A stretch of 63,949 bases of DNA, the filler included, from Kipferlia bialata (Eukaryota): NCBI GenBank assembly GCA_003568945.1. It is 8 parts of 8 records of this genome, joined end to end, with 100 filler letters (N's around TTAATTAATTAA, not from the genome) between each part and the next. Parts side by side here need not be neighbours in the genome. Positions count along the whole stretch, not along the records: positions 3,849 to 15,024 come from BDIP01001274.1; 7 more parts are not named here. One strand, 5' to 3'. Below the pieces are notes generated by a model, which made no database searches, had not been told where the DNA came from, and was given only the letters and a program-made list of their open reading frames with translations. Below are positions 6,649 through 8,718 of this stretch, in pieces (the first letter of the stretch is position 1; each line of letters opens with the position of its first letter). Both the position numbers and the translations under genes were made by a program.

Positions 6649-8718
6649 CTGTCTCATCTAACTACTGTATAATCTAATGCCCAGACAAGGTCTGGGGTGG
6701 AGACCCAGAGAGGGAGAGAGAGGTCCAGAGGACACCTGGCAACGGATACAGCAGGAAGACTGAGACTGATGTAAGTAAATAGTATATAGTGGTGTATATA
6801 CATGCTAGGTATTACTCAATTGTATATATATCTAGCAACAAATCGAAGCAGGAAGACTGATACTTACCATATGACGAGAGAATGCTGTGTGTCAAATATT
6901 AGTATGTGTATACACATTAACGCTAACAGTAGCACGAGAGAGAGATGCGTGTCCGAAGCATGACCAAGAATATCATGTATATTGTTATACTATTCTATAT
7001 ATATGTATATATATATATATATATATGTATATGTATGTACTATACATACTAATAACAGTAGGCACAGGACCAAGAGTGTTATATATATATGTGTATGTAT
7101 ACCATGTGTGTATACCAATATAGTAGTGTGTGAGAATTGTATTTATGTGTATATATATATATATATATATCCATCCCTAACCCTAGCATGAGAGAGAGCT
7201 GCGTGTCAGAAACATGACCAAGAGTGGCCAGTACGGAGTGCACCCAGACCCACACAACTCAGTCAGGCCAGGTATATATGCAGGTTTGCTGTTACTAAAG
7301 TTGTCATTTGATCTGTCATCTCTCTTCACCCCAGGAGTGTCTTCTGTCTGATATATATACGCATAAGTATCAAGTATATGAATACGTATACGTATATACG
7401 TGTATGTATACACTCATAGTAGGTGCATCTCCCATCAAGCGGCCTGTGGTCCAGTCCTCCAAGACATGCCTCAGCATCATCAACAGTGTCTTGAAGGATA
7501 GACAGGTATATAGACATATATATAGAGTATATGAAGGTGTATATATATGCATGTGTTTGGTAATCTATTATGTACATATATATGTATATGTATACATACA
7601 TATATACTTCAAGATCAACAGTATAGACGGATTGATTACCATAGGGCTACTATTATATGCATATCTTACCCTTAGGTTGAGATCCCCCAGACCATTGCCT
7701 CTCTCTATTATCTCTCTCACACTCTCCCTCTGTGTATATACTATGTATTCTGACTGCTCACTGTAGGTTGAGATCCCCCAGACCATTGCCTCTCTGCTGA
7801 GGATAGAGACAGCAAACCCAAGGTATATAGATGCACAAATATATATCTCATATATATATAAATACTCTTATATATTATACCAGTATGTGTATATTCAGGG
7901 TCTCTGCTGAGGATAGAGACAGCCAACCCAAGGTGTGGCTGATTCAACACTACACACATCCTCACTCCGATGACCTCTGCCCTCTATCTAATGATATATA
8001 CCCTTAATCCAATGCATCCAGGCACAGGAGACCTATGTAATAATCCTATTTCCCCTTTATCTCATGGTGTTTGCTCTTTCCATATATATATATATATATG
8101 AATATGTATATATATACCCTTAATCTAATGACAGGTTCATCCAGGCCCAGGAGACCTATGTCTTCACGTGGCTGGAGAAGTTCTACCCGGATGTCCTGGT
8201 GGACCTGCCCAGTGAGTGGCTCCCAACCCATGTCAGGTATATATATATGTATGCTCTCTACTTATACTATTTCATATATATGTAGTTATATGTACTATCT
8301 TATACTAATATATGTAAATATATACTTTTGTATATATGTATAATTTCTACCCGGATGTCCTGGTGGACCTGCCCAGTGAGTGGCTGCCCACACACGTGAG
8401 GTACTACAGTACATATACCCTATTCAGTAGTTGGGAAATATTGATGTACAACTTTATGGTAGTCTAAGAGTACACACTCTTCTTAACCTCCAGGGTACAT
8501 CATATATCTCTCTTTCTCGCAATGTGTGTTCATAGGCACAAGCAAGGATACATGGTGCATAGTGCATAGTGTATACATGTTCTCTATGTACCCACTTTAC
8601 CCCCAGTACTCATCAACCTTTATCTATCTCTATATATGCACTGTAAATATTGTTTTTACTCGAAATGTTCTTACCCCCCGGTGCCCAACAGCGCAAGACA
8701 CTCATCATTGTATATGTA

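What the first reader, a model, noticed from the sequence alone, without database searches (positions are those of the whole stretch)
8135..8406. Mosaic echo: 13 identical codons, then 5 consecutive synonymous codon swaps next to the donor
The real exon ends TGG CTC CCA ACC CAT GTC AG|GTATAT; echo 8345-8400 ends TGG CTG CCC ACA CAC GTG AG|GTACTA. Both encode WLPTHV(R), and the preceding 39 nt are identical. The sharp switch looks like a recombination or conversion breakpoint joining a highly diverged but protein-equivalent exon end. The same junction-proximal pattern occurs at 42313 (GCA ACA CCA versus GCT ACG CCT).
Basis: partly seen in the sequence, partly recalled or inferred. Interest (0 to 1): 0.8.

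Follow-up and report, generated by a model that had tools for sequence, protein, structure and literature searches.

The report
Introns archive displaced allelic exon edges
In the protist Kipferlia bialata many introns carry roughly 100-base repeats of the neighbouring exon's edge that differ from the working exon mostly at silent positions, likely because DNA repair copied in another allele's exon edge and pushed the old working copy into the intron.

Summary
Observation confirmed. Exon 8135-8236 and echo 8345-8400 share 41 identical bases, then differ at five consecutive third positions, all silent. A spliced contig uses the exon in this frame and skips the echo; DNA contigs carry both. The echo is one of 114 found beside 102 curated exons; 98 line up with the exon boundary, at splice sites with GT/AG kept. 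Of 186 differences 111 are silent (pN/pS 0.21), above the ceiling for a neutrally decaying copy. Splice signals are kept while the adjacent intron is mostly unalignable. Units are about 103 bases, and outer echoes are more decayed. So both copies most likely worked as exons while diverging. Best mechanism (inferred, 0.5): break repair from a diverged allele with end-joining, displacing the old exon edge. No second allele was found. The junction gradient holds overall and at acceptors, but not at donors once the two quoted cases are removed. A Rac exon elsewhere in the window matches Kipferlia bialata. Eight literature searches found no description. The scan earlier noted plain exon echoes in a sea urchin.

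The parts
8135..8236 (+). Working exon (102 nt, phase 2/2)
   Evidence: Spliced contig of X2 joins 7822>8135 and 8236>8872 with GT..AG and 0 other letters; open frame
8181..8221 (+). 41-nt block of the exon identical to the echo
8222..8236 (+). Junction-proximal 15 nt with five silent differences from the echo
8237..8344 (+). 108-nt intron piece between the working donor and the echo; no branch-point/AG motif at its end
   Evidence: 0 of 48 such donor-side pieces end in the motif
8345..8402 (+). Donor echo: 56 exon-like bases plus GT; not in the spliced contig
   Evidence: DNA contigs 8192-8374 and 8356-8708 match with 0 other letters at depth 360-397
8401..8871 (+). Remaining 471-nt intron behind the echo donor, ending in the working acceptor
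8015..8038 (+). Upstream echo of the same exon's start (AG lost; one silent difference)
42444..42500 (-). Second example: working exon of gene model F
   Evidence: curated model, open frame; not checked against a transcript
42314..42348 (-). Nearest donor echo, 3 silent changes next to the donor
42190..42229 (-). Second donor echo (2 silent, 1 non-silent)
42086..42111 (-). Third, most decayed donor echo (2 silent, 3 non-silent)
1698..1734 (+). Acceptor echo of the last exon of a dynein-heavy-chain-like gene (name recalled, not searched): 3 differences, all silent

Best explanation
The echo is likely a once-working exon end of another allele, left in the intron when a break in the exon was probably repaired by copying about 100 bases from a diverged homologous chromosome and then end-joining. 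Steps. (1) Shown: the echo is genomic, is skipped in the one spliced contig seen, and belongs to a window-wide class with silent-biased differences, kept splice signals, mostly unrelated intron flanks and about 100-nt units. (2) Inferred, fairly firm (about 0.85): both versions were under protein and splicing selection while they diverged, so they come from two working lineages (alleles or very close relatives). (3) Inferred, weaker: one broken end invades the homolog in the exon, the only place where the alleles still match. It copies the exon edge plus about 70 nt of the other intron, drops off, and is joined back to the resident end at or a little before the break. The new edge is spliced; the old edge with its splice site becomes the echo. 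Invasion by the other end gives the mirror-image acceptor echoes. Repeats push older echoes outward, where they decay. In the focal case the 41 identical bases would be the stretch duplicated from one chromosome and the last 15 nt the stretch where the two alleles differ. Which copy is the incoming one is not known.
For: Polarity: 57 of 61 downstream echoes reach the exon end and 46 of 53 upstream echoes the exon start (within 10 nt); donor echoes precede acceptor echoes in 21 of 21 pairs. Selection: 186 mismatches in 2829 nt, 113 at third positions, 111 silent, pN/pS 0.21. The silent share 0.60 exceeds the 0.39-0.47 ceiling for a neutral echo beside a fully constrained exon (p 4e-9 to 5e-4; 93 of 162 after removing repeats; cluster bootstrap 0.49-0.66; 80 of 146 without extension to the splice site, p 0.01). 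Silent changes have no direction: echo codon commoner in 52 cases, rarer in 59. Splice signals: the boundary is kept in 50 of 52 donor and 42 of 46 acceptor echoes. The branch-point/3' motif is in 29 of 42 echo acceptors against 54 of 985 other intronic AGs, though the last 12 intron bases are identical in only 1 of 42. The median identical run into the intron is 3-4 nt; flanks align better than controls in 6 of 51 donor and 8 of 42 acceptor echoes. Unit spacing has median 103 nt (IQR 92-114); inner intron pieces are 70-72 nt, truncated, against a 122-nt core. Age order: in 20 arrays the farthest echo has 23 non-silent changes in 539 nt, the nearest 10 in 572 (p 0.02), with equal silent counts. 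Non-nested private variants are 11 silent of 21 (p 0.004-0.03 against neutral). Echoes also occur at two stop codons, so splicing is not needed to make them. Metamonads lack Ku/NHEJ, and fornicates lack Rad51A but have two Dmc1 (PMC8516963, passages). One-sided SDSA ending in end-joining is an established route (PMC4617055, passages).
Against: No second allele or paralog was seen: no other letters were listed over 6660-9600 in either run (contigs drop rare variants and 81 pieces were not shown). Two metagenome scans found no relative. Sex or outcrossing is not mentioned in the passages of the genome paper that were read. No donor-side gradient without the two quoted exons. The frame-free test is not significant (44 of 113 consecutive mismatch spacings divisible by 3, p 0.12), and the transcript-confirmed exons without the focal echo give only 4 silent and 4 non-silent. 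Most frames rest on my own curated models. No fixed tract length (echo and piece lengths uncorrelated, rho -0.08) and no clear microhomology signal (p 0.08-0.15). Near versus far echoes do not differ in length (p 0.61). The nested versus non-nested contrast is not significant (p 0.16). 14 of 93 flanks do align, as plain local duplication would give. All data come from one 64-kb window of one sample.
Confidence: 0.5

Rival explanations
1. Two steps. A plain local tandem duplication first makes an identical echo. A later unequal crossover between the echo (or exon) and another allele's exon swaps in that allele's exon edge and intron. This shares the allele-capture core but not the one-step repair.
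For: Gives directly the sharp switch from identical to diverged, and a gradient toward the junction. Some arrays have alignable flanks (14 of 93) and some echoes resemble each other (9 of 148 same-intron piece pairs above the control threshold).
Against: A second event inside a target of about 30 nt would be needed in most echoes before they decay. 25 of 98 echoes have no exon difference, yet 8 of the 11 longest of these match at only 4-10 of 20 adjacent intron bases.
Confidence: 0.2
2. Single lineage: the working junction (exon edge plus intron) mutates or is rewritten much faster than the rest, selection lets only silent changes through, and echoes are slower snapshots of earlier states.
For: Needs no second allele, and none was seen. 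Explains silent bias, gradient and age order. Fourfold sites within 6 nt of a junction are less GC-rich (101 of 199 against 523 of 821 at 7-30 nt, p 9e-4).
Against: Only 5 of 34 silent variants in arrays are shared by all echoes against the exon. 11 silent variants sit in a nearer echo while a farther echo matches the exon, which a single line of descent does not predict. No such mutator was found in the searches.
Confidence: 0.12
3. Plain tandem duplication of the junction, neutral decay of the echo, with conversion (from DNA or cDNA) keeping the exon-like part similar away from the edge.
For: Tandem genomic duplication is a known, frequent event (PMC3443670, passages). Outer echoes do decay: 4 stop codons, and far-private variants are 10 silent of 31.
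Against: Caps the silent share at 0.39-0.47; observed 0.57-0.60. Does not keep GT/AG and branch points while the flanks diverge. Cannot give 5 of 5 third positions changed with 0 of 10 first and second positions changed.
Confidence: 0.08
4. The echoes are used now, for example in rare alternative splicing or as templates that convert the exon, and are therefore under protein selection in place.
For: Splice signals are retained.
Against: The focal echo has no acceptor in front (0 of 48 donor-side pieces end in the motif) and is skipped in the spliced contig. Using its donor would retain 108 intron bases. Four echoes carry stops and outer ones decay.
Confidence: 0.05
5. Assembly artefact: two haplotypes collapsed head to tail.
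For: Short-read assembly of repeat-rich DNA; run X1 may be the source of the window, so it is not independent.
Against: Separate contigs bridge exon end to echo start (8192-8374) and echo to downstream intron (8356-8708) with 0 differences at the depth of neighbouring contigs. The echo is preceded by intron-like sequence, not by the rest of an exon.
Confidence: 0.02

Closest known systems
Tandem genomic (internal gene) duplication at splice junctions (reviewed in PMC3443670; PMC3265369 seen as listing only)
   Same: Head-to-tail repeat of an exon edge with its splice site; the mRNA is unchanged.
   Different: There the copies start identical, flanks included, and can create a new intron. Here existing introns grow, flanks are mostly unrelated, and the copies differ mainly at silent sites.
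One-sided SDSA coupled to end-joining (PMC4617055, passages)
   Same: Homology at one end starts copying; a non-matching 3' end is joined without homology and can leave a duplication or patchwork insert.
   Different: Described there for plant somatic repair. Here it is inferred from sequence only, at about one event per exon in five genome pieces, with a diverged allele as template, in a lineage reported to lack Ku and Rad51A.
Intron transfer between paralogs by recombination (PMC3443670, passages)
   Same: Intron sequence moves between homologous genes through flanking exon homology.
   Different: That moves a whole intron to an empty site. Here only an intron end arrives and the old edge stays.
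Mutually exclusive duplicated exons (general knowledge, recalled)
   Same: Exon-like copies in an intron under protein selection.
   Different: Those are whole exons with both splice sites. Echoes are partial (median 28 nt), have one splice site, and decay.

Membership tests
Plain tandem duplication of a splice junction | Head-to-tail direct repeat spanning the exon boundary | tested here: met
   98 of 114 echoes are anchored at the boundary
Plain tandem duplication of a splice junction | Intron part as similar as the exon part | tested here: not met
   Exon part 93% identical; flanks beat controls in 14 of 93; identical run 3-4 nt
Plain tandem duplication of a splice junction | Dead copy diverges neutrally (silent share at most 0.39-0.47) | tested here: not met
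   0.60; bootstrap 0.49-0.66
One-sided HR plus end-joining from a homolog | Template exists as another allele | tested here: inconclusive
   No variant letters in 2 runs of one sample; no relative in 2 metagenome scans
One-sided HR plus end-joining from a homolog | One homologous end, one abrupt non-homologous join | tested here: met
   Echo begins abruptly after intron-like sequence; intron pieces are truncated (0 of 48 end in an acceptor motif)
One-sided HR plus end-joining from a homolog | Microhomology or filler at the join | tested here: inconclusive
   Proxy test p 0.08-0.15; the template's continuation is unknown
One-sided HR plus end-joining from a homolog | Dependence on breaks and recombinase | not testable with these tools
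   Needs experiments
Mutually exclusive or alternative exon | Own acceptor and donor, present in transcripts | tested here: not met
   No acceptor before 8345; skipped in the one spliced contig

The most novel reading that the evidence does not exclude
Kipferlia repairs breaks in exons from highly diverged alleles so often that exon edges and intron ends are continually swapped between haplotypes. Its introns then grow as ordered stacks of displaced, formerly working exon edges: a dated archive of lost alleles, and evidence of outcrossing, readable from a single genome that shows no heterozygosity where checked.
Probability: 0.45. Interest if true: 0.87.

Novelty: new variant of a known kind. 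Interest (0 to 1): 0.72.

Why it matters
If right, it is a route of intron growth and intron-end turnover not found in my searches, acting on more than half of the introns examined (59 of 95). It would let allelic diversity and past genetic exchange be read from one genome of a free-living fornicate, a group whose sex and break repair are open questions. It also bears on how a spliceosome picks among stacked, valid-looking splice sites, and it warns that gene predictors will call echo fragments as exons (my own predictor did).

Tried and rejected
Genes at roughly 15100-21300, 26400-30400 and 48900-63949 were not modelled; a model-free repeat scan covers them. No RNA holder on record was listed; X2 is a guessed RNA run. 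Reads could be laid only on 6660-9600; the 42313 example was not checked against transcripts. Metagenome scans with an exon of gene F and with a long kelch-like exon found nothing. A homolog search with a single-exon gene returned only itself. The family of the focal gene's protein was not determined. Ectopic origin of the intron pieces from other introns of the window: no match above background (best score 15 among 9168 pairs). Fixed tract length and microhomology: not supported. Frame-free mod-3 test: not significant. Non-silent changes are not more conservative than random (BLOSUM -0.53 against -0.66, SD 0.20), consistent with decay after displacement. One search timed out and was rerun; one search crashed half way and was completed in 35. 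Sixteen of 114 hits without the cognate boundary were dropped before the mismatch counts; one search repeats the count on all 114. Papers: PMC5874029 passages and section 12 ('exon', 'duplicat', 'heterozyg' and 'ploidy' occur 0 times in its main text); PMC6679479, PMC8516963, PMC4617055 and PMC3443670 passages only; all others as search listings. No supplements were opened, and they may bear on the novelty claim. Searches.

Full report
Observation. The finding is exact. Exon bases 8181-8221 equal 8345-8385; the next five codons differ at their third base only, all silently; AG|GTA is shared and the introns then diverge. The same holds at 42313 on the minus strand with three silent changes. One 2469-nt contig of run X2 (a guessed RNA run) joins seven exons between 6684 and 9333 at GT..AG introns with no other letters. 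It uses 8135-8236 and skips the 635-nt intron that holds the echo. DNA contigs of X1 bridge exon end to echo and echo to downstream intron without differences at ordinary depth; X1 may be the window's own source, so this is not independent. Five changes on these five positions have P 1.2e-4 given that they are third-position changes; it is the longest run among 98 echoes.

Organism. A Rac-like exon at 57442-57699 is 100% identical to a protein annotated as Kipferlia bialata (P0057). The window appears to be eight pieces joined by N-linkers. That the focal piece (3849-15024) is the same organism is inferred from the shared intron style (GTA donors, branch point close to the 3' AG; compare the fused motif of Giardia in PMC6679479).

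The class. I drafted gene models by dynamic programming and curated seven of them: 102 exons, open frames, canonical internal boundaries. An ungapped scan blind to codon position (score at least 11; about 1% false hits per exon-intron pair) found 114 echoes. Downstream echoes copy exon ends (57 of 61), upstream echoes copy exon starts (46 of 53), and donor echoes precede acceptor echoes in 21 of 21 pairs. 59 of 95 introns carry echoes (median 284 nt against 91.5). Units are spaced at a median 103 nt: about 28 nt of exon plus about 70 nt of truncated intron, stacked around a longer core. Two stop codons are echoed into the 3' flank too. A model-free scan finds 1-4 such repeats per kb in five pieces and almost none in the three GC-rich pieces from 48914 on.

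Both copies were under selection. In the 98 anchored echoes, 186 of 2829 bases differ: 113 at third positions, 111 silent, pS 0.165, pN 0.035. A neutral copy would give a silent share of 0.24-0.31. A neutral copy beside a perfectly constrained exon would give at most 0.39-0.47. The observed share is 0.60, or 0.57 after removing repeats, with a cluster-bootstrap interval of 0.49-0.66. Silent changes show no drift to AT or to rarer codons. The boundary is kept in 92 of 98 boundary-reaching echoes and a branch-point motif in 29 of 42 echo acceptors (background 54 of 985), although the last 12 intron bases match the working acceptor in 1 of 42. Intron flanks align better than controls in only 14 of 93 cases. 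Against this: the frame-free spacing test is not significant, the transcript-confirmed subset without the focal echo is 4 silent and 4 non-silent, and most frames are my own.

Gradient and order. Silent differences sit nearer the junction than expected (0.405 against 0.50, p 3e-4), non-silent ones do not (0.505), and simulated detection does not create the shift. The effect persists without the two quoted exons (0.424, p 0.01) but comes from acceptor ends; donor ends alone give 0.51. In 20 arrays the farthest echo carries more non-silent changes than the nearest (23 in 539 nt against 10 in 572, p 0.02), so new units arise next to the working exon. Variants private to the outermost position look neutral (10 silent of 31); variants private to an inner echo while an outer one matches the exon are 11 silent of 21. 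That pattern fits several source alleles better than one line of descent, though the contrast between the two classes is not itself significant (p 0.16).

Mechanism. The simplest account of silent-only divergence, kept splice signals and unrelated introns is that the two edges come from two working alleles whose introns no longer match. A break in an exon can then find homology only in the exon. One end invades the homolog, copies the edge and about 70 intron bases, and is end-joined to the resident end, which becomes the echo. One-sided SDSA ending in end-joining is established (PMC4617055). Metamonads are reported to lack Ku-type NHEJ, with alternative end-joining full in some and partial in others, and fornicates to have two Dmc1 but no Rad51A (PMC8516963); the status of end-joining in K. 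bialata itself was not seen in the passages read. All of this is inference: no second allele was seen, none was found in metagenomes, and tract-length and microhomology tests were negative or inconclusive. I give 0.5 to the one-step route, 0.2 to duplication followed by unequal crossover with another allele, 0.12 to a fast-mutating working junction, 0.08 to plain duplication with conversion, 0.05 to present function and 0.02 to artefact.

Comparison and novelty. It works like a tandem duplication of a splice junction (PMC3443670) but fails two defining tests of the plain form. The K. bialata genome paper counts 124,912 introns and, in its main text, never uses the words exon or duplication. 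Eight full-text searches listed nothing on this pattern; subscription journals and supplements were not covered. Verdict: real, window-wide, a new variant of a known kind; interest 0.72.

Noticed in passing
window 1996-2022, 2054-2065 (+) and 30649-30670 (-): Echoes of the last codons including the stop codon lie in the 3' flank, so the process acts at coding/non-coding borders, not only at splice sites.
   Followed up: partly
window 48914-63949: Three GC-rich pieces (about 55% GC, few TA runs) hold almost no echoes (1 repeat in about 15 kb) against 1-4 per kb elsewhere: the process seems regional or gene-class specific.
   Followed up: partly
window 34729 versus 34629 (-): The echo acceptor has a better-looking consensus than the acceptor used in my gene model; if the model is right, splice choice needs a downstream donor (exon definition). 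Not checked against transcripts.
   Followed up: no
window 32826-33458 (-): Five acceptor echoes share two bases against the working exon and show non-nested variants; some units have alignable flanks, suggesting secondary duplication among echoes.
   Followed up: partly
window 24612-24613 (+): Probable GC-AG intron in gene model C.
   Followed up: no
window 56930-58084 (+): Rac-like GTPase gene whose database entry (P0057) is named 'Ran GTPase'; its named close relatives are Rac/Rho proteins, so the label looks wrong.
   Followed up: partly
long exons sampled: Extreme codon bias: GAG 172 against GAA 2, CAG 104 against CAA 3.
   Followed up: no
window 3749-3848 and six similar places: N44-TTAATTAATTAA-N44 linkers: the window looks like eight joined pieces, so genes across linkers are not neighbours.
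   Followed up: yes
window 41975-47416 (-): Gene model F has motifs recalled as a TBC/RabGAP domain; 58574-58948 (-) carries PF03966.
   Followed up: no
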